From assembly GCA_963662615.2 (NCBI GenBank), contig CAXXSR010000002.1:224001-288000 (forward strand): 64,000 nucleotides of DNA. Reading direction: 5' to 3'. Positions 18,814-35,001 of the stretch are shown here, piece by piece; position 1 is the stretch's first letter, and every line of letters starts with the position of its first letter. The notes beneath the pieces are model-generated. The model was not told where the DNA came from. It worked only from the letters and a program-made list of their open reading frames with translations, and searched no databases. The stretch comes from Dehalococcoidia bacterium. GTDB lineage: Bacteria; Chloroflexota; Dehalococcoidia; Bin125. Both the position numbers and the translations under genes were made by a program.

Positions 18814-19050
18814 CCCTCCATGCTAGGGAGACGAGGGAGCCGCAAAATGCGGATTCTCCCTTAGGGGCCGGGGAGCACTTCCGGATTCTGGAGGGGAGAA
18901 CGGTGGAGAGGGGCGCCGGCGGGCGCAGGCGGGGGCGGGGAGCGGTCGAGTGGGGGCAGGGGCGTGCTCCGGGCGGTCCGGGCGCGAGATGTGGGGGAGT
19001 CGACGTACGGCGGGCTCCGGCCACTGCTAAGGGATTTACGCCGCCGCCTC

Positions 19051-20501: not shown

Positions 20502-20559
20502 TTGAGACAGGCGGGGCCACCGCCCCGTGGGCGTGCAGGAAGGCGACGAGCGCGAGGTC

Positions 20560-20898
20560 ATGAGCGACATCAGCGTCAACCGCACCGCCGCCATCGCCGT
20601 GACGCCGACGGACCGGCAAGGCGGCCAAGCGCGCGACCGGCGGCGCGATTCCGATGCCCGCGCTCGGGCCCGTCGGGAGGCGATCGTGGAGCTCCTGGAA
20701 GGACATGGTGTCCCCCACGACGAGGGGTTGACGCCGATCCTGGAGGTGATCACGGATGCCGATAGCGGCGCCACCCGCATTCGCGTGTGGGACGAGCGCA
20801 CGGGGGCCGTGGTGGCGGAAGTGAGCGCGGAGGAGTTCGCCGCGGCGGCGGCGGCGCACCAGGCCTTTGAAGGTCTCTTGGTGGAGCGCAACAGCTAA
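20560..20898 (+). CDS. flaG: FlaG-like flagellar protein
   Basis: RIRVWDERTGAVVAEV...EGLLVER; between fliC and fliD. Confidence 0.75.
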   Translation: MSDISVNRTAAIAVTPTDRQGGQARDRRRDSDARARARREAIVELLEGHGVPHDEGLTPILEVITDADSGATRIRVWDERTGAVVAEVSAEEFAAAAAAHQAFEGLLVERNS

Positions 20899-22925
20899 TG
20901 GCACCGATTGCCTTTGGCGGGATCATTTCGGGCGTTGATACGACGTCGCTCGTGGACCAGATCATCGCGGCGCAGGCGCGGCCCATCCTGCGCCTGGAGA
21001 GTCGGATCGACGTTCAGGAGGATCGCAAGGAGGCGCTGGGCGACCTGCGCGGCCGGCTTGCGAATCTACTCACGCGGGCGCTGGCGTCGGTGAGCGGGCT
21101 GAGCGCGCGCACGGCGATCGCCGGCAAGACGGCGACGGGCGACAAGAGCGTGATCAGCGTGGCGGTGGACAGCACCACGGCGGTGGGATCGTTCCAAGTC
21201 TCTGTGGAGCAGCTGGCGACGACGACGCGCGTGGAGGCGGCGACGCCGATGGGCCAGGCCGTGACGCAGAACGTGGCGCTGGACAGCGCCGGCTTCAGCG
21301 CGACGATCACCACCGGCACGTTCACCATCAACGGGACGCAGATCAGCATTGACAGCAGCACGGTGCTTTCCGACGGCGTGGATGACGGGACGTCGAACTC
21401 GATCCTGGGCAAGATTAATAACGCCGGGATTAGCGTGACAGCCAGCGTCGTCAACGACCCCTTCAGCAACCCGAACCTTCTGCAACTGAGCTCCGCCAGC
21501 GCCATCACGCTGGGCGCGGGGGGCGACACGAGCAACTTCCTGGAGGCCGCGCACCTCCTGGCGTCGGTGGCGGGGAGCACCCGTACCAGCACGCAGGGTC
21601 TGGGGCAGACGCAGCCGTCGGTGAACCTGGACAGCGCGCGGCTGGTGACGGCGCTGGTCCCGACGACGGGCAGCTTCACGATCAACGGTTTGACCATTAC
21701 GTACGACGCCGCCAATGAGTCGCTCAACGACATCCTCAGCAAGATCAACACGGCGGGGGCGGGGGTCACGGCGAGCTACGACGCGAATGCCGACGCGGTG
21801 GTGCTGACGGCGGAGCAAACCGGGTCGATCACGATCGGCCTGCAGGACGTGAGCGGCAACTTCCTCCAGGCCACGGGCCTGCTGGGCGCAACCCAGACGT
21901 TGGGGCAGAACGCCGCTTACAAGATCGACAGCGGCCCGACCCAGTATTCCACCAGCAATACGATCGCGAACGCGGTGCCCGGAGCGACGGTGACGTTGCT
22001 GGCAGCGGCCCCCGGCGACAACGCGACGGTGACGGTGGAGGCGAACGATGAGGCGATCATCAACGCCGTGAAGGCGTTCGTGCAGCAATACAACTCCACC
22101 TTGACCTTGGTGACCGACCTGACGGCCGCGAATCCTGAGGGCGTCAGCGGCGATCTGGCCGGCGACAGTTCGATCCGGTTATTGGCGCAGACCTTGCGAT
22201 CGCTGGTGGTGGGCTTGGGGGACAACCTGACCACGCAGTACACGAGCCTGAGCGACTTGGGCGTGACCTTCGGCGCGGTGGGCGCCGAATTGGGGGCGAC
22301 CGACATCCTGCAGCTCGATGAGGCGCCCCTGCGCGACGCCATGAAGGAGGATCGCAACGCGGTCATCCAGCTCCTCGCCGCGCTGAGCGTCACCGCCACG
22401 TTCCAGAGCGGGACGGGCAGTCTTGCCAGTACCGCGGGGGTCCCCGACAAGACGCAAGCAGGAACGTACACGATTACGGACGACGGGTCGGGCAATCTGA
22501 CCGTCCAGTTCGACCCGACGGACGGCAGCACCAGCATTGTCAGTACGGGCACGATTATCGCGGGCGGCACCAACAAGACGATCATTCCCGGCATGACGCT
22601 CACGGCCAAAGGGACGCTGCAAGCGGGGGCCGACACGATCCTGGTGACGCGCGATAAGGCCGGCGTGGCCGTGAAACTGGAGAATGCGCTGGACGCGCAA
22701 TTGCGGACGGACGGCACGCTGGACACCAAAACCGAGGTGATCGACAAGCTGATTGCGGACATGAACGACCGCATTGCGCGGCTGGAACAGCGGCTGGTGT
22801 CGGAGCAGGTGCGTCTGGAGCGGCAGTTCGCCCGCATGGAGCAGGCGTTCGCACGCTTCGAAACGCAGCGCAACTTGCTGTCGGGCCTGACGAGCACACT
22901 GAATTCGATCAGCAGCGCACGGTAA
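20898..22925 (+). CDS. fliD: Flagellar filament cap protein FliD
   Basis: FGGIISGVDTTSLVDQII; FVQQYN; C-terminal RLERQFARME. Confidence 0.95.
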   Translation: MAPIAFGGIISGVDTTSLVDQIIAAQARPILRLESRIDVQEDRKEALGDLRGRLANLLTRALASVSGLSARTAIAGKTATGDKSVISVAVDSTTAVGSFQVSVEQLATTTRVEAATPMGQAVTQNVALDSAGFSATITTGTFTINGTQISIDSSTVLSDGVDDGTSNSILGKINNAGISVTASVVNDPFSNPNLLQLSSASAITLGAGGDTSNFLEAAHLLASVAGSTRTSTQGLGQTQPSVNLDSARLVTALVPTTGSFTINGLTITYDAANESLNDILSKINTAGAGVTASYDANADAVVLTAEQTGSITIGLQDVSGNFLQATGLLGATQTLGQNAAYKIDSGPTQYSTSNTIANAVPGATVTLLAAAPGDNATVTVEANDEAIINAVKAFVQQYNSTLTLVTDLTAANPEGVSGDLAGDSSIRLLAQTLRSLVVGLGDNLTTQYTSLSDLGVTFGAVGAELGATDILQLDEAPLRDAMKEDRNAVIQLLAALSVTATFQSGTGSLASTAGVPDKTQAGTYTITDDGSGNLTVQFDPTDGSTSIVSTGTIIAGGTNKTIIPGMTLTAKGTLQAGADTILVTRDKAGVAVKLENALDAQLRTDGTLDTKTEVIDKLIADMNDRIARLEQRLVSEQVRLERQFARMEQAFARFETQRNLLSGLTSTLNSISSAR

Positions 22926-23002
22926 AGCGACGGCAGGCGGCACGGCAGTGCCGAGGCCACAGGGGTCACTACAGGGGCAGCCAGGGGGGCAGGGAAGACG
23001 CA

Positions 23003-23410
23003 ATGGAGAATGGCTATCAGACGTACCAGCGGGTGGGGATGGAGACCGCGTCGCCGTCGCAGCTGTTGCTTGCCCTCTATGACGGCGCCATTCGCTTTCT
23101 GGGGCTGGCGCGGACGGGGCTCGAAAGGCGCGACCTGGAGGCGGCCAATCGCAATCTGGGGCGGGTGCAAGACATCATCATGGAGCTGCTGGTCACGCTG
23201 GACATGGAGCAGGGCGAGATTCCGGAGCGGCTGCGGGACCTTTACATCTATCTCTACCGCGTGCTGCTTGAAGCAAATCTGGAGAAGAACGACGCCAAGA
23301 TGGTGGAGGTGGACGGCCATCTGCGCCGGTTGCGGGCGTCGTGGCGGGGCGCCGCGGAGCAGGTGGCGCGGCAGGCCGCCGGCGATGCGCCGGGGCGGAT
23401 GACGGCGTAG
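23003..23410 (+). CDS. fliS: Flagellin chaperone FliS
   Basis: TASPSQLLLALYDGAIRFL; QDIIMEL; LYIY. Confidence 0.96.
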   Translation: MENGYQTYQRVGMETASPSQLLLALYDGAIRFLGLARTGLERRDLEAANRNLGRVQDIIMELLVTLDMEQGEIPERLRDLYIYLYRVLLEANLEKNDAKMVEVDGHLRRLRASWRGAAEQVARQAAGDAPGRMTA

Positions 23411-23425
23411 GAAGGCGGGAACTGC

Positions 23426-23824
23426 ATGCAACGCCCAGCCGAGGAACGACTCAGCATCCTCAAACAGCTGCTGCGCCTGGCGCAGGAGCAGCGCGGAGCC
23501 CTGCGGGCGGACGACGTGGCGCAGTTCGAGGCGCTCCTGGGTCAGCGGCAGCGCCTGCTCTATGTGCTCGCGACGGAAGGGGACCAGTTGGTGCCGGCGA
23601 ACGTGATCCCGTTTCCCGGACGGGGCCGCTCCGGCGACGACCAGCTGGCGCTGGCGGCGCTGGTGCAGGGCATCCAGGAGATCGATCGGGAGAACGGGTC
23701 CCTGCTGCAGACGAAGCTGGCCGAGGTGGGCGCGAGCCTGCGCCGCCTGCACCAGGGCCGACAGGCCGCGCGCGGCTACGCGCCGCCGCCGCGGACGTCG
23801 GCAGGGCTCGAGAAGGCAGGATAA
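23426..23824 (+). CDS. FliT/FlgN-like flagellar chaperone
   Basis: Helical protein after fliS; IQEIDRENGSLL...ARGY. Confidence 0.7.
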   Translation: MQRPAEERLSILKQLLRLAQEQRGALRADDVAQFEALLGQRQRLLYVLATEGDQLVPANVIPFPGRGRSGDDQLALAALVQGIQEIDRENGSLLQTKLAEVGASLRRLHQGRQAARGYAPPPRTSAGLEKAG

Positions 23825-23961
23825 GGCCGCACCCCCCCCAGCGCAGGCCGGCCCGTGCCGCATCATTGGGGATGCCGAGACTCCTGTGAGCCGCTATGCT
23901 GCTGGCACTTTGGCGCGGCCCTTGCCCAAGGGGCGAGGGAAAGTCCAGGGATGCCCCCGTG

Positions 23962-24237
23962 ATGCTTGAGCCCAGTGGCCGCCCGCACCCGCACCCGGAC
24001 GCGTCAGCAGCGGCAGGCCCCGAACCGTCGGCGGCGTCGCCCCCGGAGGCCCCCGGGTCCGCCGCGGAGGCGAGCGGGAGCGCGGCAGCCGGAAGCGCGA
24101 AACGGGCAAGCGGCCGCCCCGTTGGTGGGGCGACGCTGCGCACGGAGAAAGTCTTCGCCCTGCGCACGGCGCTCGCCAACGGCACGTACAAGATCGATGC
24201 GAGGCGGATCGCGAAGCGGCTGCTCGGCCGCCCCTAA
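23962..24237 (+). CDS. flgM: Second FlgM-like anti-sigma-28 protein (start uncertain, 23896-23962)
   Basis: RTEKVFALRTALANGTYKIDARRIAKRLL. Confidence 0.75.
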   Translation: MLEPSGRPHPHPDASAAAGPEPSAASPPEAPGSAAEASGSAAAGSAKRASGRPVGGATLRTEKVFALRTALANGTYKIDARRIAKRLLGRP

Positions 24238-24452
24238 CCTCTCCGCCTGCCCCCGCCAGCGCCCGGAAAAGCGGCCGGCCCACTGTCAGGGCGGAAGCCC
24301 GGCCGTGCTTTCGCCTTCGGCTTTCAGGTCTTTCATTGGATCGCATCAGGAACCCCGGCCTGGGCCATCAGGGATCGTCCAATGGGGGCGGAATCCCCAG
24401 CCCCATAGATTGAATGCACACCTGTCCGCAGCAGGGGAGAGGGCCGGCGCGC

Positions 24453-26028
24453 GTGGCTTCGTTCGCAACGCTTCCAAGCGATCTGGGCGGTGTCTGGAAC
24501 CGGCTCCCGCGCGGCCAGAAGGTGGTGCTGTTGCTAATGGGCGGCGGTGCGATCGTGCTGTTCATGCTGATGACCAGCTGGGCGCGGTCGCCGGACTTTG
24601 TGCCGCTGTATGGCGGGCTGGAGCCGGCGGACGCGGGCGCCGTGGTGGACCGCCTGCAAACGCAGGGGATTCCCTACCAGGTCTCGGATGGGGGGGACGA
24701 GCGTGCGTGTGCCGTCCTCGCGGGTGGCGGAGGCGCGGATCGACTTGGCATCGGTGGGGCTGCCCAGCGGTGGCGCGGTCGGCTTCGAAATCTTTGACAA
24801 TCAATCGTTTGGCGTCACGGATTTCGTGCAACGCATCAATCTCCGCCGCAGCCTGGAAGGGGAGCTGTCGCGCACGATCAATCAGCTGGACGGCGTGCGC
24901 GGCAGCCGGGTGCATATTGCGATTCCGGAGAACCAGCTCTTCACGGAGCTGGAGGCGAAGGCGGGGGCGTCCGTGGTGCTGGAGCTGCGGCCGGGGAGCG
25001 GCCTCTCGCAAGCGCAAGTCCGCGGGGTGGCGCATCTGGTGGCGCAGAGCGTCGACGGGCTGGACGCGGCGAACGTCACGATCCTGAATACGAAGGGCGA
25101 CATCCTCTACGACGGCAGCGATGATCTCGGGGTCGCCGGCAGCACTCAGCTGCAACTGGCCCAGGCGTACGAGGACCGGCTGGAACGAGATCTGCGCGGC
25201 TTTTTGCGCTCCGTCCTGGGTCCGCACCGTTCGGCGGTGGAGGTGAGCGCGGCGCTGGACTTCACGCACACGGACACGACGACGGAGACGTTCGTGCCGG
25301 TGGAGGCAGGCGAGCGATCCAGCCAGACGGTGGAGGAGACCTTCACCGGCACGGGCGGTGCGGAGCCGCTCAACGTGCCGGGGGCCGTGGCGAACGTGCC
25401 GGGTGCGAACGTCCCCGAGGTGGATGGCGAATCGGAGGGGGCATCTTCCAGCTATACGCGCACGGAGTCCACTGTCAACAATGAGCTGAACCGCATCCTG
25501 GCGGTGACGACGACGGCGCCGGGGCAGGTCCAGCAGCTCTCCATTTCCGTGATCTTGGACGAATCCGTTTCAGAAGAGCAAGCGAGCGAGTTGAAAGCGG
25601 CGCTGAGCACGGCTGCCGGCATCGATCCGTCGCGGGGCGATGCGCTGACGGTGAGCCGAGTGCCCTTCGATCTGACGGAGCTGGAAGAGGCCGAAGAGGC
25701 GTCCAACCAGACCACGAACATGATGCGGATGGCGCTCCCCGTGGTGGCCGTCCTGCTGGCGGGCGGATTCTTCTGGTTCTTCATCCGCAAGGTGGGGCAG
25801 GCCGGGCAGCGCTCACAGTCGGACCAGTTCACGCTGGCGGTGGGCGCGGGGGCCGCGACGCCGGCGCTGCCGCAGGGCGAAACGGTGGAGCACCTGCAGG
25901 AGCGGATGCGCCTTGAGGCGCAGCAGAAGCAACGGGAGACGACGACCCAGGAGATCACGCAGTTTGCGCGAGCGCAGCCGCAGGCGGTTGCGGAGGTGGT
26001 GCAGACCTGGGTCCGCGAGGACAAGTAA
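24453..26028 (+). pseudogene. fliF: MS-ring protein FliF, frameshifted at G7 tract 24690-24696 (possibly a sequencing error)
   Basis: TM + PDFVPLYGGL in one frame; GFEIFD...RSLEGELSRTI in the next; removing one G gives SDGGTSVRVP. Confidence 0.92.
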
Positions 26029-26046
26029 GAAGGACGCACAGACGCC

Positions 26047-27069
26047 GTGGTGCAAAAGTCAGCTGGGCGGATGCGCGGGCGCATGAAAGCCGCCGCGCTG
26101 CTGGTGGCCTTGGGCCCGGAGCTGTCGGCGGCGGTGCTGCGGAAGCTGCCGGAAGACGACATTGAACGGATCACGTTTGAGGTATCGGCCCTAGGGACGG
26201 TCGCGCCGCAGTCGCGCGAAGCGATCATGGAAGAGATGTTCTCCACGGCGAAGGCGCAGGAATACGTCAGCGTGGGGAGCGTGGACTACGCCAGGAAGAT
26301 GCTGGAGCAGGCGCTGAGGACGTCCAAGGCGGAGGAGATCGTCCGTCGCATTGCGGTTAGCAGCGACGCGATGCCGTTCGCGTTCCTGCGTGAGGTGGAC
26401 CCGGTGATTCTGGTCGGTTACCTGCAAAAGGAGCACCCGCAGACGGCGGCTTTGATCTTGGCGCACCTGCCGTCCGGGCGCGCCTCGGAGGTGCTGCGCG
26501 GGCTGCCGGCCGACATCCAAGGGGACGTCTCCGCGCGGGTTGCGTCCATGAGCCGGACGGCGCCGGAGGTGGTGCGCGACGTGGCGGGCGTGATGCGCAA
26601 GAAGCTGTCGTCCATGATCACCCCGCATCAGGAGTTCGCGGAGGCCGGCGGCCTGGATGCCCTGGTGCGGATCCTGAAGCAAGTAGACCGGGGGACAGAG
26701 AAGACGATTCTGGAGTCCATGGAGCGCGCCGACCCCAAGCTGGCCGACGAGATCAAGCAGCAGATGTTCGTCTTCGACAACATCACGCAGCTGGACGACC
26801 GGTCGATTCAGCGGGTGCTCCGCGAAGTGGACATGAAAGATTTGGGGCTGGCGCTGAAGGGGACGACGGAGGAAGTGCGCGAACGGATCTTGCGCAACAT
26901 GTCGGATCGCGCGTCGAAGATGCTGGAGGAGGACATGGTCGCCCACGGCCCGGTCCGTGTGCGGCACGTGGAGGAGGCGCAGGGTCGCATTGTTGGCGTG
27001 ATCCGGCGGTTGGACGAGGCCGAGGAGATCCTCATCTCTCGGGGCGGGGAGGACGACATCCTTGCCTAG
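26047..27069 (+). CDS. fliG: Motor switch protein FliG
   Basis: KAAALLVALG, EHPQT, MFVFDNI, NMSDRA. Confidence 0.97.
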   Translation: MVQKSAGRMRGRMKAAALLVALGPELSAAVLRKLPEDDIERITFEVSALGTVAPQSREAIMEEMFSTAKAQEYVSVGSVDYARKMLEQALRTSKAEEIVRRIAVSSDAMPFAFLREVDPVILVGYLQKEHPQTAALILAHLPSGRASEVLRGLPADIQGDVSARVASMSRTAPEVVRDVAGVMRKKLSSMITPHQEFAEAGGLDALVRILKQVDRGTEKTILESMERADPKLADEIKQQMFVFDNITQLDDRSIQRVLREVDMKDLGLALKGTTEEVRERILRNMSDRASKMLEEDMVAHGPVRVRHVEEAQGRIVGVIRRLDEAEEILISRGGEDDILA

Positions 27070-27784
27070 ACGCAACCCGATCCTCCCGAGCCGAGGGCGC
27101 GCGCTGCGCCCCCGCGATGCGGCGGAAGGCGAGCCCGTGCGGATTCGGCGCAGCCAGCTGCGCGGGCGCCCGCTGCTGAGCCGGGGCCGGGTCGCGCCGG
27201 AGGCGGAGATCCTCGACAACGCGCGCCGGCAAGCGGAGGCGCTGCGGACGGAAGCGGCGGCGGACGCGGCCGCGCTTCGCGAGGGCGCCGGCCACGAATG
27301 CGCGAACGTGCTGGCGGCCGCCCGCGAGCAGGGCCAGCAGGCGGGTTACCTGAGCGGCCAGGCGGCCGCCCAGGAGGAGATGGCGGAGGCGTTACAGCTG
27401 GTGCGGACCGTGGCCGCGGACACGAAGGCGCTACGCGACACGATTTTCCGCAGCTCCCAGGAGCAGCTGTTGCGATTGGTGGCGGCGGCGGCCGTGCGGG
27501 TGGTGGGCGACGTTGCCAAACAGCATCCGGATCTGGTGCTGCGGGCCGTGGAGGAGGCGCTCCAGCGCAGCGGCGATCAGCGCGTGCTGCGCGTGCCGGT
27601 GCATCCGGATTCGCAGCAGATCGTGGAGGCGAGCTACGGGCCGGAGGAGCGCGACTGGGCGCTGCGGAGCGACGGGGGGCTGGCGCTGGGCGGCTGCATT
27701 GTGGACACGGCGGCGGGCGTGATTGACGCCTCCGTGGAGGGCCAGGTGGGGGAGATCGAAGCGGCCTGGCGGGAGCTTTCGTGA
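27062..27784 (+). CDS. fliH: Flagellar export protein FliH
   Basis: AxxxG repeats, VHPD, GGCIVDT..G.IDAS. Confidence 0.88.
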   Translation: MPRRNPILPSRGRALRPRDAAEGEPVRIRRSQLRGRPLLSRGRVAPEAEILDNARRQAEALRTEAAADAAALREGAGHECANVLAAAREQGQQAGYLSGQAAAQEEMAEALQLVRTVAADTKALRDTIFRSSQEQLLRLVAAAAVRVVGDVAKQHPDLVLRAVEEALQRSGDQRVLRVPVHPDSQQIVEASYGPEERDWALRSDGGLALGGCIVDTAAGVIDASVEGQVGEIEAAWRELS

Positions 27785-29190
27785 TGGTGATGGCGGAGAC
27801 GCCAGCAACGCTGGACCTGGCGCGCTATGAGGCTGTGCTGCCGATGGTGCCGACCGTGCGCGCGCGGGGGCGGGTGGTGCAGATTGTGGGGATGACGCTG
27901 GAGGCGGAGGGGGTCGCCGCGCGGGTCGGTGAGATCTGCCACATCCGCGACGACGAGGCAGGCGAGCTGCGGGCGGCGGAGGTGGTGGGATTCCGCAACG
28001 GGCGGCTGCTGCTGGTTCCGTTGGAGCCGCTCAGCGGCGTTCTGCCCGGCAGTCAGGTGACGGCCAGCGGCAGCTCCTTCCGCGTGCCCGTGGGAGACGA
28101 GATGCTGGGCCGGGTGCTGGACGGTCTGGCGCGGCCCATTGACGGACGAGGGCCGATTCTGGCGACCGATCACACGCTGACACAGGCCTCCACACCGGCT
28201 CCCCTGAGCCGCCAGCTGATCCGGCAACCGTTCTCTACGGGCATCCGTTCCATTGATGCGCTGCTGACGTTGGGCGTGGGTCAGCGCATTGGCATCTTCG
28301 CCGGGTCCGGCGTGGGCAAGAGCACCGTGCTGGGGATGATTGCTCGGTACGCCACGGCCGACGTCAATGTGATTGCGCTCATTGGCGAACGCGGACGCGA
28401 GGTGCGGGAGTTTCTGGAGCACAGCTTGGGGCCGGCCGGCCTGGCGCGATCGGTGGTGGTGGTGGCGACGTCCGACCAGCCGGCGCTGCTGCGACTCAAG
28501 GCGGCCTGGGTGGCCACGGCGGTGGCGGAGTGGTTCCGCGAGCAGGGGCGCAGCGTCCTGCTGATGATGGATTCGCTGACCCGCTTCGCCATGGCGCAGC
28601 GGGAGATTGGCCTGACGGTGGGCGAGCCGCCGGCGGTGCGCGGCTACACGCCTTCCGTCTTCGCCATGCTGCCGGCGCTACTGGAACGAGCGGGCACGTC
28701 GGATGTGGGCGCGATCACGGGGCTTTACACGGTGCAGGTGGAAGGCGATGACCTGCGTGAGCCCGTCAGCGACACGGCGCGCGGCGCGCTGGACGGCCAC
28801 ATTGTGCTGTCGCGGGCGTTGGCGCAGCAGAGCCACTATCCCGCCGTGGACGTGCTGGCGAGCGTGTCGCGATTGGCGCCGGCGCTGCAGAGTCCGGAGC
28901 ATGCGCGCGCCGCGGGCCGGTTGCGGGAGCTGCTGGCGGCGTATGAGGAGACACGCGATCTGATCTCGATCGGCGCGTATCAGGCGGGGAGCAATGCAGA
29001 TGTGGATTACATGATCAAGGCGCGGACGGAGATCAACGCGTTCTTGCAGCAAAAGCCCGGCGAAGGCGCGGACTTCGCGCAGAGCCTCACGCGCTTGCTG
29101 ACGCTGGCGCCACCCGCCGGCATGCCGGTGACACCGTCCGACAACGCGATCATGGCAGCGACGCATAGCGAGGGGGGGCAGGATGTCTAA
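27781..29190 (+). CDS. fliI: Flagellar export ATPase FliI
   Basis: AGSGVGKST, GERGRE, MDSLTRFAMAQRE. Confidence 0.98.
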   Translation: MMVMAETPATLDLARYEAVLPMVPTVRARGRVVQIVGMTLEAEGVAARVGEICHIRDDEAGELRAAEVVGFRNGRLLLVPLEPLSGVLPGSQVTASGSSFRVPVGDEMLGRVLDGLARPIDGRGPILATDHTLTQASTPAPLSRQLIRQPFSTGIRSIDALLTLGVGQRIGIFAGSGVGKSTVLGMIARYATADVNVIALIGERGREVREFLEHSLGPAGLARSVVVVATSDQPALLRLKAAWVATAVAEWFREQGRSVLLMMDSLTRFAMAQREIGLTVGEPPAVRGYTPSVFAMLPALLERAGTSDVGAITGLYTVQVEGDDLREPVSDTARGALDGHIVLSRALAQQSHYPAVDVLASVSRLAPALQSPEHARAAGRLRELLAAYEETRDLISIGAYQAGSNADVDYMIKARTEINAFLQQKPGEGADFAQSLTRLLTLAPPAGMPVTPSDNAIMAATHSEGGQDV

Positions 29191-29629
29191 ACCGTTCCGT
29201 TTGCGCCGGGTTCTGGAGCATCGCCGGGGGCTGGAACGAGAACAGCAGGGCGTGATGGCGCTCGCGCGGCGGGCCGCCGCGGAGGGAGAGCAGACCCTGG
29301 GCGAGTTGCTGGAGCATGGTTGGGCCGAGCGTGTGCGCGCCCGCGCGAACAGCGAGGGCACCCTGGACGTTGGCGGCGCCGAGCGGTCACACCGCTACCG
29401 CGCGCAGTTGGGTGAGGCGATCTCGACCCAGGAGGAGCGGGTGGGCGAGTTGGGGAGCGCGTTGAGCGGTGCCGAAGAGACGCTGCTGGTACGACGGCGC
29501 GATCGTCGCGTGTTGGAGAAGTTGGAGGAGCGGCACCGCGATCGGATCGCGGAGGAAGAGGAGCGGCAGGACGCAGCGCTGACCGATGAGGTGGTGATGG
29601 GCCGCGAGGCGCGACGGTTGGCCGGATAG
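29183..29629 (+). CDS. fliJ: Flagellar export chaperone FliJ
   Basis: FRLRRVLEHR; LEKLEER; DE motif; follows fliI. Confidence 0.88.
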   Translation: MSKPFRLRRVLEHRRGLEREQQGVMALARRAAAEGEQTLGELLEHGWAERVRARANSEGTLDVGGAERSHRYRAQLGEAISTQEERVGELGSALSGAEETLLVRRRDRRVLEKLEERHRDRIAEEEERQDAALTDEVVMGREARRLAG

Positions 29630-29638
29630 GACGGTTGC

Positions 29639-30091
29639 ATGGCAGGCGTAGATATTGGGTTCATTCGCCAGGCTCTGAACGGGCTGGCGCAGCGGCAAGA
29701 GGCGATTGCGAACAACATCGCCAATATGGAGACGCCGGGCTACAAACGAGCCACGGTGAGTTTCGAATCGGTGCTGCAACGCCAGCTCGCGGACCAGCAA
29801 GCGGTGGGGCGGCAGCTGCGGTTGACGCCCAGCCGCGGCGCCGACAGCGAGCGTCCAGGACAGATGTCGCTTCGGTGGCGGCCCGTTGGCGGAGGGGGGG
29901 CAGTGGTGGGCCGCAGCCTGGCGGGGCTGAGCCCGCAGCAGTTCACCGGGGCTCCCCGCAACGACGCCAACACCGTGGACCTGGACCAAGAGATGACGGA
30001 TCTGGCCACGACGCAGATTCAATTCGCGGGCTTGAGCGCCGCGCTGAACGCCCGCCTGCGGACTCTGCGGCAGGTGATCGAGAGCAGCTAG
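29639..30091 (+). CDS. flgB: Rod protein FlgB
   Basis: IANNIANMETPGYK; NDANTVDLDQEM. Confidence 0.95.
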   Translation: MAGVDIGFIRQALNGLAQRQEAIANNIANMETPGYKRATVSFESVLQRQLADQQAVGRQLRLTPSRGADSERPGQMSLRWRPVGGGGAVVGRSLAGLSPQQFTGAPRNDANTVDLDQEMTDLATTQIQFAGLSAALNARLRTLRQVIESS

Positions 30092-30101
30092 GAGGGCACC
30101 C

Positions 30102-30551
30102 ATGGGACTGCTGAGTTCCATCCGCATCAGCGCGTCGGGTCTGACGGCTCAGCGGCTGCGCATGGACGTGATCGCCAACAATGTGGCGAATATGGACAGC
30201 ACGCGCGGGCTTGACGGAGGGCCGTTCCGCCGTCAGGTTGTCTCATTCCGCGCGCTCCCGAATCAGCGATCGCCCTTTACGGCGCCGTTGCGGCCAGGCA
30301 TTGGCGTGGAGCAGCCCGCGAAGGGTGTGGTGGTGAACCGTCTGGAGACGGACCGGTCGCCGGGCCGGCGGGTCTTGGACCCAACGCACCCCGACGCCGA
30401 CGAGGACGGCTTCGTGGAGATGCCGAACGTCAATCTTGTGGTGGAGATGACCGACATGGTCGCCGCGACGCGCGCCTATGAGGCGAGCGTGACAGTGCTC
30501 AACACCGCCAAAGCGATGGCGATGCGAGCGCTGGACATTGGGCGGCGCTAG
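30102..30551 (+). CDS. flgC: Rod protein FlgC
   Basis: ISASGLTAQRLRMDVIANN; DPTHPDA; PNVNLVVEM. Confidence 0.97.
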   Translation: MGLLSSIRISASGLTAQRLRMDVIANNVANMDSTRGLDGGPFRRQVVSFRALPNQRSPFTAPLRPGIGVEQPAKGVVVNRLETDRSPGRRVLDPTHPDADEDGFVEMPNVNLVVEMTDMVAATRAYEASVTVLNTAKAMAMRALDIGRR

Positions 30552-30572
30552 AAGTCCAGCGAAGGGACTGTC

Positions 30573-30872
30573 ATGGACCTCAACGGGATCCAGGGGGCGA
30601 AAGGGCTGGGGACGGACGCCGTTGCCGGCCGCGCCAGCAAGGGCGCAACCGAGGGCGGCTTCGGTGATCTCCTTGAATCGCTCCTAAACGGGTTGGAAGG
30701 GTCGCAGGCGCAGGCCGACAGCGCCATTGAGCAGCTCGCGCTCGGAGGCGACGTCGACATCCATGACGTGGTCCTTGCCACGGAGATGGAAGCGATCGCG
30801 TTCCAGTTTGCGATCCAGGTGCGCAACCGGTTTGTCGAAGGGGTGCAGACGGTTTTGAACATGCAGGTGTAG
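30573..30872 (+). CDS. fliE: Hook-basal body protein FliE
   Basis: DIHDVVLA; QVRNR; MQV C-terminus. Confidence 0.93.
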   Translation: MDLNGIQGAKGLGTDAVAGRASKGATEGGFGDLLESLLNGLEGSQAQADSAIEQLALGGDVDIHDVVLATEMEAIAFQFAIQVRNRFVEGVQTVLNMQV

Positions 30873-30897
30873 CGCAAGAGCGCAGAAAGGAGGGGAG

Positions 30898-32514
30898 ATG
30901 ATCCCTATTGGGCCCATGCCAACTGGGCCACCGCAGGGACCGCCAAGCGCCAGTGAGCAGGAGCAGGCTGGCGATGGCTCATCCGAATTCGCGACGCTCC
31001 TCGCGGCCTCCCCGACGCCAGCCGGGAACGCGGCCGGAGGGACGGCGAAGCCGGGGGGCAACGGTGGGAGCCCGGAGGCTGACGAACCGCTGGACCACGC
31101 AGTGGAGGCGGTCACCCAGAGCGAGGCGGGGATCGGGACGGATCGATCCGGCGGCCTCGACGAGGGCGTTGCGGCGGCGCTTGCGGTCGCCGGCGACGTC
31201 GCGGGCGCGCCGGTCGAAGGCGACGAAGAGGATCCCGAGGCTGGGGCCCCCCGTCGCCCTTCGACCCTTCGACTGAGCTCAGGACAGGCAAGCTCAGGCC
31301 GAACGGGGGCCGGCGAGGCGGCGAGTCAGGCGGCGTCCTACCCGGACGCGACCGTGGCCGTGGGCGCGGGGGAGAGCCCGGGTTCGCCGCGGCCGGAGGT
31401 CGTGCTCGTCGGAGCGGCGTCGCAGAGCGGACCGGCAGCGGTGGGCCACAGCGGAGCAGGTGGGGGGAGGGCGCTCGGCTTCGCAGAGCCGGCCGCGGTT
31501 CCTCAGGAGCCAGCCGCAGCGGCAAGCGAGGTGGCTCCTGGCACCAAGCAGGACCTGTCGACTTTGACGACGGAGGCCGGACGCGCCTCCCTGGAGCGGC
31601 CGTCCGCGCTGGGGCGCGATCTCAATCCCGCCGCCAAGCCAGCCCCCGTGGCGGGTGGCGGGGGGCCAGCGCCCGCGCCGGCGGATGCTGCGGCCGCGTT
31701 GGGGCCGGGCACGGGACCGGCGAGGATGGAGTCCTCGCCTCTGGGACCGTCGCTCGCCGCGAACACAGCGGATGCGGCGGCGACGCCCGGCGAGGGCGAG
31801 GCAGCGAACGGTGGACGGTCCGCCTTCGGGCTCCGCACCGTGCCGGCGAAGGCGGAGTCCTTTTCCGAGGGACAGTCGTTCGTCGCAGACGGGTCGGACG
31901 CGGCGGGCGCCGAGGAGCCGGGCTCGCTGGAGCCGTCGCCGAGGGACAGCGCCGCCGAGGCGCCGATGGTTCGCGTCCCTGCAACCGCCGCGCCCCGGGC
32001 GGCGGAGGGGACGAACGGGGCGGTCGCGCCCGTGAACGCGCCGACCGAGGCGGGCAGTGTTGAGGGTCGCGGGGCGCTCGTGCGACCGCCGACCTTGGCA
32101 GCACCGCCAAATCCGGTGGACCAGGTCATTGCCTCCGTGCGTCTGCTGCGCGCCAGCGGACGGCAGGAGATCCGGCTGCGCTTGGAGCCGCCGGATCTTG
32201 GCACTGTGCGGGTCCGCGTGGTGGAGGAAAACGGCGTGCTCTCGGTTCAGCTGCGCGCCGAGCAGGCAGCGGCGCTGGAGGCGATCCGGCAGGCGCTGCC
32301 GCAGTTGCGCCAGGGCCTGGAGAACGCGCAGGTGACGCTGGCGGATCTGGAGGCGGCGTTGGACGACGAGGCGGCGTTCAGCGCCCACCATCGCGAACGC
32401 GACGAGAGCGGGGACGAGCCAAACGGCCGGGCCCGCTTGGACGCGGATGGTGAGGTGGAGAGCGCGGTGGGTGTGCGCGTGGCTAGTGATAATCTCGTGG
32501 ACTTTCGAGCTTAA
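30898..32514 (+). CDS. fliK: Hook-length control protein FliK
   Basis: Long Ala/Pro/Gly-rich region; C-terminal IRLRLEPPDLGTVRV...LPQLRQGL; precedes flgD. Confidence 0.9.
   Translation: MIPIGPMPTGPPQGPPSASEQEQAGDGSSEFATLLAASPTPAGNAAGGTAKPGGNGGSPEADEPLDHAVEAVTQSEAGIGTDRSGGLDEGVAAALAVAGDVAGAPVEGDEEDPEAGAPRRPSTLRLSSGQASSGRTGAGEAASQAASYPDATVAVGAGESPGSPRPEVVLVGAASQSGPAAVGHSGAGGGRALGFAEPAAVPQEPAAAASEVAPGTKQDLSTLTTEAGRASLERPSALGRDLNPAAKPAPVAGGGGPAPAPADAAAALGPGTGPARMESSPLGPSLAANTADAAATPGEGEAANGGRSAFGLRTVPAKAESFSEGQSFVADGSDAAGAEEPGSLEPSPRDSAAEAPMVRVPATAAPRAAEGTNGAVAPVNAPTEAGSVEGRGALVRPPTLAAPPNPVDQVIASVRLLRASGRQEIRLRLEPPDLGTVRVRVVEENGVLSVQLRAEQAAALEAIRQALPQLRQGLENAQVTLADLEAALDDEAAFSAHHRERDESGDEPNGRARLDADGEVESAVGVRVASDNLVDFRA
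31213..31306. repeat. REP-like palindromic element (CCCTTCGACAAGCTCAGG type) with a nested 24-bp second copy, inside fliK
   Basis: CCCTTCGA[CCCTTCGACTGAGCTCAGGACAGG]CAAGCTCAGGCCGAACGG; inverted arm GTCGAAGGCGACG at 31213-31225. Confidence 0.7.
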
Positions 32515-32525
32515 GGAGGAGCGTC

Positions 32526-32942
32526 GTGGAACCGTTACCCGTGGGCGCCCTATTCGAACCGCAGGGAGGTCAGCGCACGCTGCAGGACACGTCTCGGCTC
32601 TCGGAGCAGGACTTCTTGCAGGTGCTGGTGGCGCAGTTGCGGAACCAGAATCCGTTGGAGCCAAGCGGCGACTCGGACTTCATGTCGCAGATTGCGCAGT
32701 TCGAACAACTGGCGTCATTGAACAAACTCAACGACACGCTGAGCGCGCTGACCGGGCTGTCCTTGCTGGGACAGGCGAGCGGCCTGCTGGGCCGCGAAGT
32801 GGAGGCGGTGGTTAACGCTTCAAGCGAGCCATACGTCGGCATCGTGCAGAGCGTGCAGTTGACGGACGGCGAGGCGATGCTGCTCGTGGGCGAACTCTTG
32901 ATCCCCGTCAGCGCCGTGCGCGCTGTGCGTTCGGGGTCGTAG
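32526..32942 (+). CDS. flgD: Hook cap protein FlgD
   Basis: DFLQVLVAQLRNQNPLEP; FMSQIAQF. Confidence 0.95.
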   Translation: MEPLPVGALFEPQGGQRTLQDTSRLSEQDFLQVLVAQLRNQNPLEPSGDSDFMSQIAQFEQLASLNKLNDTLSALTGLSLLGQASGLLGREVEAVVNASSEPYVGIVQSVQLTDGEAMLLVGELLIPVSAVRAVRSGS

Positions 32943-32960
32943 CGCGTCGAGGAGGGCACC

Positions 32961-33350
32961 ATGGAGCAGGTTCATCTGAGCCCAGTGCAGCGGACGCCGG
33001 CGCCGGCCGGCCAGGGGGGCGCGGGGCCGGCCCCGCCGCGCGGCGGGAAGGAGCCCTCTTTTGAAGGCGTCCTGGCGCGGCAGTTGGAGCAGGCCGGGAC
33101 CGTGCGCTTTTCCAAGCACGCGCTCTCACGCCTGCAGCAGCGCAACATCCAGCTGACGCCGCACGACCTGCAGTGTCTGGATAACGCCTGGGAGCGGGCG
33201 CGGTCGAAGGGGGCACGGGAATCGCTGGTGCTGCTCGACGACCTGGCGCTTGTGGTCAGCATTCGCAATCAGACGGTCATCACCGCGACCAGCGCGGCGA
33301 GCCGAAAGGAGAACGTTTTCACGAACATCGACAGCGCAGTAATCGCATGA
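32961..33350 (+). CDS. Flagellar operon protein TIGR02530 family
   Basis: FSKHA..RL..RNI; KGARESLVL; NQTVITA; NVFTNIDSAV; between flgD and flgE. Confidence 0.9.
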   Translation: MEQVHLSPVQRTPAPAGQGGAGPAPPRGGKEPSFEGVLARQLEQAGTVRFSKHALSRLQQRNIQLTPHDLQCLDNAWERARSKGARESLVLLDDLALVVSIRNQTVITATSAASRKENVFTNIDSAVIA

Positions 33351-33362
33351 GAAACAGAACGG

Positions 33363-33421
33363 GTGGAGCCGGACCTCTCCGAGGGGGCTCCGCGGACCCG
33401 GCCGCCGCAAGCAGGCGCGGC
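33363..33421 (+). ncRNA. Putative structured cis-regulatory RNA in the flgE leader
   Basis: GTGGAGCC-GGA-CCTC-tcc-GAGG-G-GGCTCCGC nested stem, then GCCGC...GCGGC stem just before the SD. Confidence 0.5.
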
Positions 33422-33450
33422 GACATGAAGAGAGAGGAATTCGGCAGACC

Positions 33451-34935
33451 ATGACGATGCGTGCTTTGTTCTCAGCCATTTCCGGGCTGCAGAACCATCT
33501 GACGTTCATGGACGTCATAGGGAACAACATTGCCAATGTGAACACGATCGCGTTCAAGGCGAACCGTGTGACCTTTCAAGACGTGCTGGGCCAAACGCTG
33601 CGCGGTGCGACGGCGCCGCAGGGCGGCATTGGCGGCACCGACCCGATCCAAGTGGGGTTGGGGATGCAGATGGGAGGCGTGAAGACGATCCACAACCAGG
33701 GGTCGCTGCAAGCGACCGGGAAGCTCACGGACTTCGCGATTCAGGGAGACGGCTTCTTCCTGCTCAACGACGCATCGCAGACGTTCTACACGCGGGACGG
33801 CTCCTTTGACGTCTCGATCGGCGGCGATCTGGTCAATCCGGTCAACGGCTTCAAGGTGCAGGGCTGGAACGCAGACGCGACCGGCGCGGTGGACACGACA
33901 GCGCCGCCGGCCGCCATCTCAATCTCGTTCGGGACCCGGGTCAGCGCGAAGTCCACGACGTCGGTGGGCCTCTCCGGCAACCTGGACGCCAGCAGCGCGG
34001 TGGGGAAGGCCTTCAGCACCACCGTGACGGTGTACGACTCCTTGGGCGTGCAGAACTCCGTGAAGGTGACGTTCAGCAAGGACTCGCCGAACACCTGGGC
34101 GGTGACGAACGGCGCCAACGTGACGGCGGCCCTGTCGGGCGGGGGGACCGGCTCGATCGACAGCATCAGCGGGAATCCCACGCAGGACATCCGGCCGGGC
34201 CAATGGGACATTACGTCGGATGCGGGGGGCGCACTGTCCGCCGTCTTCACGCCGGCGGGCGCCGGCGCGGCAGTGGAGCTGCCGATCGCGGGGACGATCG
34301 CGGCCAGCGGAACGAACACGACGCTGATCCCGGGGGTCACGTTGACGAACGGCGGCGTGTTAGCGGCCGGCACCGATTCGGTTGTGATCGCGGGCGGCAC
34401 GAACGTGGCATTCTCGTCGTCGGGGGTGTACCTCACCACGAATCCCGCCATTGCCATCAACCTGACGCTGACCAACGGGGCGGCTTCCCCTCAGAACGTG
34501 AATTTGGGCCTGACTGACATCTCGCAGTTCAGCGGCTCCGGGCAGATCGCCACGAAGTCCAGCGACGGCTTCCCGGCCGGATCGCTGACCTCCTTCGCGG
34601 TCGGCACGGGCGGAGACGTGACAGGAATCTTCTCCAACGGCTCCAACCAACTGCTGGGACAGGTGGCGCTGGGCCTGTTCACGAATCCGGCCGGGTTGAT
34701 CAAGAAGGGGAACAACCTGTTCTCGGCCACCAGCAACTCCGGCGAGGCGATCGTGGGGACGCCCGGCACGAGCGGTCGCGGCTTGGTCAGCACCGGTGCG
34801 CTGGAGGGCTCTAATACCGATCTGGCGCAGGAGTTCACCAACGTGATCTTGGCGCAGCGCGGCTTCCAGGCCAGCTCGCGGGTGATCACGGCGGCGGACG
34901 AGATGCTGCTTGACCTGGTCAACATCAAGCGGTAA
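33451..34935 (+). CDS. flgE: Flagellar hook protein FlgE
   Basis: DVIGNNIANVNT; YTRDGSF; VYDSLG; LEGSNTDLAQEFT; AQRGFQA. Confidence 0.97.
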   Translation: MTMRALFSAISGLQNHLTFMDVIGNNIANVNTIAFKANRVTFQDVLGQTLRGATAPQGGIGGTDPIQVGLGMQMGGVKTIHNQGSLQATGKLTDFAIQGDGFFLLNDASQTFYTRDGSFDVSIGGDLVNPVNGFKVQGWNADATGAVDTTAPPAAISISFGTRVSAKSTTSVGLSGNLDASSAVGKAFSTTVTVYDSLGVQNSVKVTFSKDSPNTWAVTNGANVTAALSGGGTGSIDSISGNPTQDIRPGQWDITSDAGGALSAVFTPAGAGAAVELPIAGTIAASGTNTTLIPGVTLTNGGVLAAGTDSVVIAGGTNVAFSSSGVYLTTNPAIAINLTLTNGAASPQNVNLGLTDISQFSGSGQIATKSSDGFPAGSLTSFAVGTGGDVTGIFSNGSNQLLGQVALGLFTNPAGLIKKGNNLFSATSNSGEAIVGTPGTSGRGLVSTGALEGSNTDLAQEFTNVILAQRGFQASSRVITAADEMLLDLVNIKR

Positions 34936-34971: not shown

Positions 34972-35001
34972 TCCGCTCCCTTGACAGGAAGACGGATAGG
35001 G

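What the first reader, a model, noticed from the sequence alone, without database searches (positions are those of the whole stretch)
22389..34389. The same ~88-aa beta-rich domain is inserted in both the filament cap FliD and the hook protein FlgE
Seen: FliD 22389-22646 VTATFQSGTGSLASTAGVPDKTQAGTYTITDDGSGNLTVQFDPTDGSTSIVSTGTIIAGGTNKTIIPGMTLTAKGTLQAGADTILV aligns colinearly with FlgE 34120-34389 VTAALSGGGTGSIDSISGNPTQDIRPGQWDITSDAGGALSAVFTPAGAGAAVELPIAGTIAASGTNTTLIPGVTLTNGGVLAAGTDSVVI. A manual alignment gives roughly 35 identities, including GTGS, IT.D..G.L...F.P and GTI.A.GTN.T.IPG.TLT..G.L.AG.D. In both proteins it interrupts the normal fold (after the VYDSLG strand pair in FlgE; before the C-terminal helices in FliD). 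Known: FlgE and FliD outer domains are not normally homologous to each other. Inference: a mobile surface module shuffled among axial proteins, giving the flagellum a shared outer coat for adhesion, glycosylation, sheath or accessory-protein docking, or phage evasion. This is the best candidate for an undescribed system in the window.
Basis: seen in the sequence. Interest (0 to 1): 0.82.

Follow-up and report, generated by a model that had tools for sequence, protein, structure and literature searches.

The report
Shared beta-sandwich insert in flagellar proteins
The filament cap FliD and the hook protein FlgE of this Chloroflexota genome carry the same small beta-sandwich insert, which relatives also carry in FlgK, FlgD and a rod protein, so it is a clear case of one plug-in domain shuffled among flagellar parts, with its function still untested.

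Summary
FliD aa 498-583 and FlgE aa 224-313 are 41% identical (BLASTP E 3e-15; Smith-Waterman z=16, 0 of 5000 shuffles as high).

- **Family:** a profile search of 1.84 billion proteins found 96 hits, of which 89 hold up. No Pfam or NCBIfam model covers the segment.
- **Hosts:** most are FliD. Others are FlgK, FlgE, FlgD, a rod-type protein and one ABC-transporter permease.
- **Range:** in a 401-genome sample of the class, 33 of 39 FliD-bearing genomes have the insert in FliD. 19 genomes of other Chloroflexota classes also carry it.
- **Discrete insertion:** five orthologous FlgEs lack exactly this piece.
- **History:** in a domain tree all FlgE, FlgD and five of six FlgK inserts form one supported subfamily. 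The window's FliD insert lies outside it, so the FlgE copy is not a recent copy of that FliD insert.
- **Fold:** AlphaFold2 gives both inserts the same seven-strand all-beta pattern (pLDDT 87 and 94). The nearest solved folds, weakly, are the D2 sandwiches of FlgL and FlgK.
- **Site:** the FliD site matches the Campylobacter D4 slot in the D1 bundle.

Best reading: an autonomous accessory outer domain, repeatedly spliced into surface loops. It is a new variant of a known kind. Function is inferred, not shown.

The parts
20898..22925 (+). fliD, filament cap protein, 675 aa
   Evidence: Pfam FliD_N (E 7.9e-15) and FliD_C (E 1.8e-35); translation.
22389..22646 (+). Insert domain in FliD (aa 498-583), between two C-terminal D1-bundle helices
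   Evidence: Local family HMM E 5e-31. AF2 model has 7 strands, pLDDT 93.8. A FliD profile aligned to PDB leaves this stretch unaligned, at the place where C. jejuni FliD has its own 125-aa insert.
33451..34935 (+). flgE, hook protein, 494 aa
   Evidence: NCBIfam FlgE NF004241 E 4e-113 (378.8 bits, below that model's 469-bit equivalog cut-off) and TIGR03506 FlgEFG subfamily 273.7 bits, above its 70.25-bit cut-off. Pfam Flg_bb_rod, FlgE/F/G D1, FlgE_D2, Flg_bbr_C. PDB FlgE matches.
34120..34389 (+). Insert domain in FlgE (aa 224-313), in a loop of domain D2 after the VYDSLG...W-A-V hairpin
   Evidence: Local family HMM E 3e-31. AF2 model has 7 strands, pLDDT 87. Orthologues without it split at query 227/315. 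It replaces Salmonella FlgE loop 212-226.

Best explanation
Both segments are copies of one autonomous all-beta (sandwich-like) domain of about 88 residues. The family is so far found almost only in genomes labelled Chloroflexota.

Its main and probably original host is FliD, where it sits in a loop of the D1 helix bundle. This is the same slot as domain D4 of Campylobacter FliD, on the outside of the cap legs. From there a sub-lineage of the domain was spliced, several separate times, into surface loops or empty outer-domain slots of other exported axial proteins:
- FlgE, in a D2 loop;
- FlgK, in the D2 slot and at a second site;
- FlgD, inside the Tudor domain;
- a rod-type protein;
- once, an extracytoplasmic loop of an ABC permease.

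In this genome the FliD and FlgE copies are old paralogues, not a recent duplication.

Shown: homology, the discrete insertions, the host range, the subfamily structure, and the same predicted strand pattern in both inserts. Inferred: after export through the flagellar type III channel the domain folds on the outer face of the cap and hook. There it acts as an accessory layer that thickens or braces the structure through contacts with neighbouring subunits, as proposed for FlgL/FlgK D2. It would take no part in the conserved assembly chemistry.
For: Homology and family:
- A profile search of 1.84 billion representatives gave 96 hits at E <= 1e-3 and 42 at E <= 1e-10.
- With a rebuilt HMM, 89 of the 96 keep a match (E about 1e-13 to 1e-35), 6 repeat proteins drop out and 1 keeps only partial weak matches.

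Hosts and insertion sites:
- Hosts were read from sequences, local BLAST and Pfam.
- One genome (G030) has the domain in FliD, FlgD, FlgK and FlgE.
- Further FlgE copies are in G009, G243 and one MAG, all at the same FlgE site.
- FlgK carries it at two different sites, and in tandem in P0035 and P0062.

Distribution: 33 of the 39 FliD_C-bearing genomes among 401 of the class have the domain. In the phylum sample 22 of 401 genomes have it, 19 of them from other classes, all in FliD.

Domain tree (careful IQ-TREE, 125 rows, 88 columns):
- All 6 FlgE, 5 of 6 FlgK, both FlgD and the permease copy lie with only 2 of 105 FliD rows in one set (95/81*).
- The window FliD insert lies in another set (100/97*).
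- The G030 FlgD copies nest with the G000/G009 FlgE copies (98/95*).
- The G030-type FlgK copies nest among FlgE copies (100/98*) and share a Pro-rich sub-insert with them.
- The rod copy nests among FliD copies (99/96*).
- Host labels need 12 changes, where 6 is the minimum.

Fold: the two AF2 models have the same 7-strand order. Both give the FlgL D2 of Xanthomonas as best PDB match (TMq 0.50-0.53), followed by FlgK, other FlgL chains and Wzc.

[quoted passage not shown] A bracing role for D2 of FlgL/FlgK is proposed in PMC6155364.
Against: - No experiment or structure of any flagellum carrying this domain exists, so the functional part is by analogy only.
- The Foldseek matches are weak: best E 2e-3, none <= 1e-3, TM about 0.5. 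A sequence profile of the domain finds no FlgK or FlgL chain in the PDB even at E <= 10.
- I could not inspect model coordinates. The adjacency of the N and C termini, and the outward orientation in FlgE D2, are therefore assumed, not seen.
- The domain tree rests on 88 columns and is unrooted, so the direction 'FliD first' rests on prevalence, not on a rooted test.
- In this genome FliD and FlgE never touch in the assembled flagellum, because FlgK and FlgL lie between them. A simple homotypic-contact model therefore does not explain this particular pair.
- The strongly conserved GTN-T-T-L-I-P-G-x-T-L-T stretch could be a binding surface rather than a folding core.
Confidence: 0.6

Rival explanations
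1. The domain is a binding module. It would form a common docking surface for one extracellular partner (surface glycan, matrix, substrate, or an accessory flagellar protein), displayed wherever it is inserted.
For: The most conserved part is a contiguous surface-type motif: N 81%, L 85%, I 93%, P 85%, G 100% at alignment columns 101-107, kept across all host types. The domain also occurs in an extracytoplasmic loop of an ABC permease (P0045), so it is not tied to flagellar packing. FliD acts as an adhesin in some bacteria (abstract of PMC7316729, listing).
Against: No partner gene stands out. The window shows a standard fli/flg cluster. No lectin or carbohydrate-binding family matches at Pfam thresholds. 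Lectin chains in the Foldseek lists have TMq 0.25 or less. The conserved Gly, Pro and hydrophobic residues are equally expected of a folding core.
Confidence: 0.2
2. The domain is a glycosylation platform: a Thr/Ser-rich, sequon-bearing module that gives axial proteins a glycan coat.
For: N-x-[S/T] stands at the same aligned position in 96 of 130 unique domain sequences: FliD 83/111, FlgK 6/6, FlgE-labelled 5/6. The inserts hold 20-26 Ser+Thr in 86-90 residues.
Against: No STT3/AglB/PglB-type oligosaccharyltransferase (PF02516) and no Maf-type (PF01973) gene was found in the own genome, which is 93.6% complete. Both FlgD copies lack the sequon (0/2). Asn followed by Thr in a Gly-rich turn is a common structural feature. 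Other glycosyltransferase types were not searched.
Confidence: 0.07
3. The domain matters only in FliD, where it would set cap geometry as Campylobacter D4 does. The copies in FlgE, FlgK, FlgD and the rod protein would be near-neutral passengers from illegitimate recombination between neighbouring flagellar genes.
For: The domain is near-universal in FliD of the class (33 of 39). It is sporadic elsewhere: FlgE copies in 3 of those 33 genomes plus G009 and one MAG. The hosts are clustered genes. PMC12221982 ascribes a geometric effect to D4.
Against: The FlgE copies are kept in at least three families of the class at one site, with 68% identity between G000 and G009 (60/88). That argues for purifying selection rather than drift. 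The non-FliD copies form their own conserved subfamily.
Confidence: 0.12
4. The resemblance is a chance or compositional artefact of Gly/Thr-rich outer regions.
For: Both segments are rich in G, T, S and A. Several repeat-rich, unrelated proteins scored against the first two-sequence profile (P0005, P0075, P0079, P0080, P0099, P0100).
Against: z = 16 and 0 of 5000 shuffles reach the score. BLASTP with compositional adjustment gives E 3e-15. The repeat proteins drop out with the family HMM, while 89 proteins score 1e-13 to 1e-35. Both inserts have the same predicted strand pattern.
Confidence: 0.01

Closest known systems
D2 beta-sandwich of the junction proteins FlgL and FlgK (Xanthomonas FlgL 5ZJ0/5ZIZ, Burkholderia FlgK 4UT1; PMC6155364)
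   Same: A small accessory beta-sandwich appended to an axial protein and exposed on the outside. It is shared by two different axial proteins, with a proposed bracing or quasi-homotypic role (passages read). It is the best Foldseek match of both insert models. In several Chloroflexota FlgKs the insert sits in the FlgK D2 slot.
   Different: The fold similarity is only weak: TMq 0.50-0.53, E 2e-3 to 8e-3, 18-20% identity. There is no sequence-level match. The present domain is shared with clear sequence homology (about 40%) by at least five host protein types, including the caps FliD and FlgD, which is not reported for D2.
Domain D4 of Campylobacter jejuni FliD (6SIH, 9GSX; PMC7316729, PMC12221982)
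   Same: An extra globular domain inserted at the same place, within the C-terminal part of the D1 helix bundle of FliD (profile alignment; passages). It lies away from the cap cavity.
   Different: Cj D4 is about 125 residues, and the domain profile does not align to it. No evidence of homology. D4 is not reported in other axial proteins.
Domains D3/D4 of Campylobacter FlgE (5JXL, 5AZ4)
   Same: Extra outer domains inserted into the D2 region of the hook protein.
   Different: The insertion point differs. In 5JXL the VYDSLG-type strand lies after the extra domains (residue about 612 of 851), whereas here the insert follows that hairpin. The sizes also differ: about 400 aa against 90.
Flagellin 'IN' motif shared by flagellins, hook-associated proteins and FliD (Pfam PF07196; recalled, not tested here)
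   Same: A sequence element shared between different flagellar axial proteins. FliD here contains repeated TFTING...IN..G.GVTAS-type stretches (seen).
   Different: That is a short motif of about 50 residues in the N-terminal or central part of FliD, not this 88-residue beta domain. Pfam reported no such hit for this FliD at E <= 1.

Membership tests
FliD (filament cap) for the host at 20898-22925 | FliD_N and FliD_C regions above Pfam cut-offs | tested here: met
   PF02465 55.7 bits (cut-off 24.8) and PF07195 122.9 bits (cut-off 25.4). A profile of 20 relatives hits solved FliDs at E down to 1.9e-46.
FlgE (hook protein) for the host at 33451-34935 | Rod/hook N- and C-terminal segments, D1 and D2 domains | tested here: met
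   PF00460, PF22692, PF07559 and PF06429 are all above their cut-offs. TIGR03506 scores 273.7 bits against a 70.25 cut-off. PDB FlgE chains match at E 2.9e-59.
FlgL/FlgK D2 beta-sandwich | Same fold: a 5+3-strand sandwich with the first and last strands adjacent | tested here: inconclusive
   It is the best Foldseek hit for both models, but with TMq 0.50-0.53 and E 2e-3 to 8e-3, and none <= 1e-3. The models show 7 strands. Coordinates could not be inspected.
FlgL/FlgK D2 beta-sandwich | Detectable sequence relationship to FlgK/FlgL D2 | tested here: not met
   A profile of 52 domain sequences against all PDB chain sequences at E <= 10 lists no FlgK or FlgL chain.
FlgL/FlgK D2 beta-sandwich | Accessory domain inserted in the D1 region of a junction protein | tested here: met
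   This holds for the FlgK hosts only. In P0014, P0035, P0043, P0044 and P0062 the insert lies between the HxxGFG motif and the FF motif, where the window's own 468-aa FlgK has nothing. That this site is the FlgK D2 slot is recalled.
Campylobacter FliD D4 | Insertion within the D1 helix bundle of FliD | tested here: met
   Profile positions 508-585 are unaligned, opposite Cj residues about 430-554. The site is described in PMC7316729.
Campylobacter FliD D4 | Sequence or fold homology to D4 | tested here: not met
   No alignment of the insert to 6SIH or 9GSX. 9GSX is not among the listed Foldseek matches (only the top 50 or so are shown).
Any curated domain family (Pfam-A 2025 copy, NCBIfam 20.0) | Match above the curated cut-off | tested here: not met
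   0 of 52 domain sequences reach any Pfam cut-off; the best E is 0.003. Neither insert has an NCBIfam or Pfam match at E below 0.003, and all are under their cut-offs.

The most novel reading that the evidence does not exclude
A Chloroflexota-specific mobile beta-sandwich cassette has hopped at least six times between exported flagellar axial proteins. It would work as a common homotypic connector, or as a shared receptor site, so that successive layers (FlgD on FlgE, FlgK on FlgE, FliD on the junction) or one unknown extracellular partner recognise the same module. That would be a modular, lineage-specific outer layer of the flagellum, built from one domain.
Probability: 0.15. Interest if true: 0.75.

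Novelty: new variant of a known kind. Interest (0 to 1): 0.5.

Why it matters
Extra outer domains on flagellar axial proteins are known, and so is one sandwich fold shared by FlgK and FlgL. Here a single domain family, recognisable by sequence, is found in the filament cap, hook, hook cap, junction and a rod-type protein of one phylum, at defined loop positions.

- **An evolutionary record.** It shows how the outer surface of the flagellum is remodelled by domain shuffling between genes of one machine.
- **Permissive sites.** It marks insertion sites in FlgE D2, FliD D1, FlgK and FlgD that could be used for protein engineering.
- **A missing family model.** It defines a domain family that is absent from Pfam and NCBIfam.
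- **Minimal scaffolds.** The axial proteins of these genomes are otherwise small (FlgK 468 aa, FlgL 295 aa, FlgD 138 aa), which makes the effect of the add-on testable.

The function is unknown, and the organisms are mostly uncultured, which limits the immediate impact.

Tried and rejected
- **Complex prediction**, two copies of the FlgE insert with alignment A3. Verdict 'no answer', score 0.00, controls not run. This is not evidence either way.
- **ESM Atlas look-up** of the FlgE insert. Recognition was low (1662) and the best clusters are unnamed, so it was uninformative.
- **Earlier scan notes**, by place and by sequence: nothing found.
- **A third copy in the own genome.** A tblastn hit at C2:570880-571089 had E 0.15. 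The profile searches did not confirm it, so it was rejected.
- **Repeat-rich proteins** that scored with the first two-sequence profile: P0005 (3245 aa, 19 stretches), P0075, P0079, P0080, P0099 and P0100. All are lost with the family HMM. P0081 keeps only partial weak matches. All were treated as spurious or unresolved and left out of the counts and trees.
- **Pfam DUF7305.** It hit the FliD insert at E 0.003, but matches only 1 of 52 family members, so it was rejected.
- **Type IV pilin PilE1** (6I2O, 8PFB). A weak 48-residue sequence match at E 0.0012. It is not among the listed Foldseek hits and was kept only as a note.
- **Glycosylation enzymes.** STT3 and Maf-type families were not found in the own genome.
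- **phmmer of FliD against PDB** found nothing; a profile was needed.
- **Literature.** Four searches turned up no description of this domain or of a domain shared by FliD and FlgE. The library holds open-access papers only, and supplementary files were not seen.

Rows dropped before the trees:
- Domain segments covering fewer than 70 HMM positions, for example P0062 and truncated fragments.
- Identical sequences: 146 segments reduced to 130.
- For the careful tree, 25 FliD rows at 80% identity or more to a kept row: 150 reduced to 125.


Full report
**1. The observation**

They lie in a 675-aa FliD (window 20898-22925; Pfam FliD_N and FliD_C) and a 494-aa FlgE (33451-34935; rod/hook N and C segments, D1, FlgE_D2).

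- BLASTP with compositional adjustment gives 34/82 identities, E 3e-15.
- A global alignment has 37 invariant columns of 90.
- The Smith-Waterman score is 154. For 5000 pairs with both segments shuffled it is 39.7 +/- 7.1, maximum 74: z = 16, and 0 of 5000 reach it.

The similarity is real and not compositional. The own genome has only these two copies.

**2. Both segments are discrete insertions**

A search with FlgE in 41 related genomes found it in 9.

- G009 and G030 align end to end.
- G034, G039, G031, G026 and G028 align in two pieces, for example 3-227 and 315-494, which skip the segment.
- G027 gave only an N-terminal piece.

A multiple alignment shows the insert at the same point, after the VYDSLG...W-A-V hairpin, in five insert-bearing FlgEs. 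Two FlgEs have a short loop there. Against Salmonella FlgE the insert replaces the loop between residues 212 and 226 of D2.

In FliD, Pfam FliD_C covers about 690-710 bp in genomes without the segment and about 960-990 bp in those with it. A profile of 20 FliDs aligned to solved structures leaves profile positions 508-585 unaligned. Opposite them lie about 125 unaligned residues of Campylobacter jejuni FliD. [quoted passage not shown] **3. It is a family**

A two-sequence profile searched against 1.84 billion representative proteins gave 96 hits at E <= 1e-3 and 42 at E <= 1e-10. I rebuilt an HMM from 99 segments and re-scored the hits.

- Six repeat-rich proteins dropped out.
- One kept only partial weak matches.
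- 89 scored about 1e-13 to 1e-35.

No Pfam or NCBIfam model covers the segment: 0 of 52 members reach a Pfam cut-off, and the best E is 0.003.

Hosts were read from the sequences, local BLAST and Pfam.

| Host | Representative proteins |
|---|---|
| FliD or FliD fragments | the great majority |
| FlgK | P0014, P0035, P0043, P0044, P0062, P0074 |
| FlgE (fragment) | P0067 |
| FlgD | P0064 |
| Rod-type protein with Flg_bb_rod, D1 and Flg_bbr_C | P0065 |
| ABC-transporter permease, copy in a loop after the first hydrophobic stretch | P0045 |

Genome G030 has the domain four times, in FliD, FlgD, FlgK and FlgE. G009, the only other genome of the own family with flagellar genes among the 24 searched, has it in FliD and FlgE like the window. 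G243 and one MAG also have it in FliD and FlgE.

In FlgK it occupies two different sites and is tandemly duplicated in P0035 and P0062. In FlgD it splits the Tudor-like domain. I recall that the usual FlgD Ig-like domain sits at that place; this was not tested. The window's own FlgK (468 aa), FlgL (295 aa) and FlgD (138 aa) are minimal and lack it.

**4. Distribution**

In an even sample of 401 genomes of the class, 39 have FliD_C and 33 of these have the domain. The six without it are G028, G071, G096 and G116 (one genus), G034, and G177 (a contig-end fragment).

In a sample of 401 genomes of the phylum, 22 have the domain. Nineteen of these are from other classes, each with a single copy in FliD. 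I did not count FliD in that sample.

A pattern scan of one genome per species gave 20 loci. Nineteen lie on contigs labelled Chloroflexota or its subgroups, and one on a MAG labelled Proteobacteria. That scan sees only close relatives of two short patterns.

**5. History**

A careful maximum-likelihood tree of 125 domain sequences (88 columns, LG+G4, unrooted) shows the following.

- All 6 FlgE copies, 5 of 6 FlgK copies, both FlgD copies and the permease copy fall in one set with only 2 of 105 FliD copies (95/81*).
- The window's FliD insert lies elsewhere, with G009's FliD and two others (100/97*).
- The window's FlgE insert is 68% identical to G009's (60/88) and 43% to its own FliD insert (37/86).
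- Within the 'hook-side' set, G030's FlgD copy nests with the G000/G009 FlgE copies (98/95*).
- The G030-type FlgK copies nest among FlgE copies (100/98*) and share a proline-rich sub-insert with them.
- The rod-protein copy nests among FliD copies (99/96*), and FlgK P0035 stands apart.
- Host labels need 12 changes on the tree, where 6 is the least possible.

There were therefore several independent transfers between host proteins. The pair in this window is old.

That FliD is the original host is inferred from prevalence across classes, not from a rooted test. With so few columns, many forks are unresolved.

**6. Fold**

| Model | Alignment | Mean pLDDT | pTM | Strands |
|---|---|---|---|---|
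| FlgE insert | 52 sequences | 87.0 | 0.79 | seven |
| FliD insert | 52 sequences | 93.8 | 0.84 | seven, same order and spacing |

Foldseek against the PDB gives no match at E <= 1e-3 for either model. Both have the same leading hits:

- the D2 domain of Xanthomonas FlgL (E 2e-3 and 8e-3, TMq 0.50-0.53);
- then Wzc periplasmic domains, Salmonella and Burkholderia FlgK, Legionella FlgL and a flagellin.

PMC6155364 (abstract and passages) describes FlgL D2 as a beta-sandwich inserted in D1. It resembles FlgK D2, is exposed outside, and is proposed to reinforce the junction by quasi-homotypic contacts.

A sequence profile of the domain finds no FlgK or FlgL chain in the PDB. The relationship to D2 is therefore at most distant, and I do not file the domain as a member. 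The only sequence hit near significance is a 48-residue stretch of a type IV pilin (E 0.0012), which I did not follow.

**7. Mechanism**

Shown:

- a homologous, autonomous-looking beta domain;
- spliced into loops or empty outer-domain slots of proteins that are all exported and fold outside the cell;
- conserved in FliD across a phylum.

Inferred: it sits on the outer face of the cap legs and of hook domain D2. It acts as an accessory layer that braces or thickens the structure, by analogy with FlgL/FlgK D2, Campylobacter FliD D4 and the extra FlgE domains.

Three points limit this reading.

- I could not see model coordinates.
- A homodimer prediction gave no verdict (see Tried and rejected).
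- FliD and FlgE do not touch in an assembled flagellum, so a simple homotypic-contact idea does not explain this particular pair.

**8. Rivals**

A binding module is possible. The most conserved stretch is G-T-N-T-T-L-I-P-G-x-T-L-T, and one copy sits in a transporter loop.

A glycosylation platform is suggested by N-x-[S/T] at one aligned position in 96 of 130 sequences. Two findings weaken it. No STT3-type or Maf-type enzyme was found in the own genome, which is 93.6% complete. Both FlgD copies lack the sequon.

**9. Novelty**

Four full-text searches found no description of this domain or of a domain shared by FliD and FlgE. Subscription journals and supplements were not searched.

Domain insertion in axial proteins, and a fold shared by FlgK and FlgL, are established. 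This is therefore a new variant of a known kind:

- a new domain family with no curated model;
- an unusually wide set of hosts within one machine;
- clear evidence of repeated shuffling.

Interest is moderate. It would rise if a structure showed a common outer layer or a shared partner.

Noticed in passing
window 9512-10918 (FlgK), 10925-11812 (FlgL-like), 32526-32942 (FlgD): The junction and hook-cap proteins of this genome are minimal: FlgK is 468 aa with nothing between the GFG and FF motifs, the flagellin-fold FlgL-like protein is 295 aa, and FlgD is 138 aa with no Ig-like domain. Relatives fill these same slots with the insert domain.
   Followed up: partly
whole window; G000 contig C2: The complete che/fli/flg cluster lies on the smaller contig (653 kb of 2.66 Mb). 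Among 24 other genomes of the same family, only one (G009) has FlgE, and in the class sample none of 25 family members has FliD_C. Flagella are rare in this family and may sit on a secondary replicon.
   Followed up: partly
window 34981-36237 (+): Directly downstream of flgE is a 418-aa protein with a cyclic-nucleotide-binding domain and DUF2225. It could be a regulator linked to the flagellar cluster.
   Followed up: no
window 17650-18864, 20527-20898, 23966-25087, 29635-30114 (+): These ORFs inside the flagellar/chemotaxis cluster have no Pfam match at E <= 1e-3. The 123-aa ORF just upstream of fliD is in the usual FlaG position, and 29635-30114 is in the FlgB position. Some may be wrong-frame ORFs in this high-GC DNA: 23966-25087 overlaps the fliF ORF (24598-26028).
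   Followed up: no
P0035 (aa 312-395 and 398-477) and P0062 (aa 331-408 and 413-495), FlgK proteins from the representative library: Two FlgKs carry the insert domain twice in tandem; the second copy is more diverged (E 5e-13 and 2e-12).
   Followed up: partly
P0045 aa 91-179: An ABC-transporter permease (BPD_transp_1) carries one copy of the domain in the loop after its first hydrophobic segment. It is the only non-flagellar host found.
   Followed up: partly
L012, L013, L073, L124, P0067, P0074: In one lineage the FlgE and FlgK copies share a proline-rich sub-insert of about 10-14 residues after the F-T-P motif. This marks transfer between FlgE and FlgK after the sub-insert arose.
   Followed up: yes
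domain profile positions 17-64: There is a weak sequence match (E 0.0012) to the C-terminal beta region of a type IV pilin, PilE1 (6I2O, 8PFB). In addition, 2 of 52 members touch Pfam Pilin at E 0.13. This may be chance.
   Followed up: no
L074 (contig JAJPGT010000063.1): One FliD with the insert lies on a MAG labelled Proteobacteria. Its insert groups with Chloroflexota FliD copies of family f4 (quick tree). The cause may be mis-binning or mislabelling, or a real occurrence outside the phylum.
   Followed up: no
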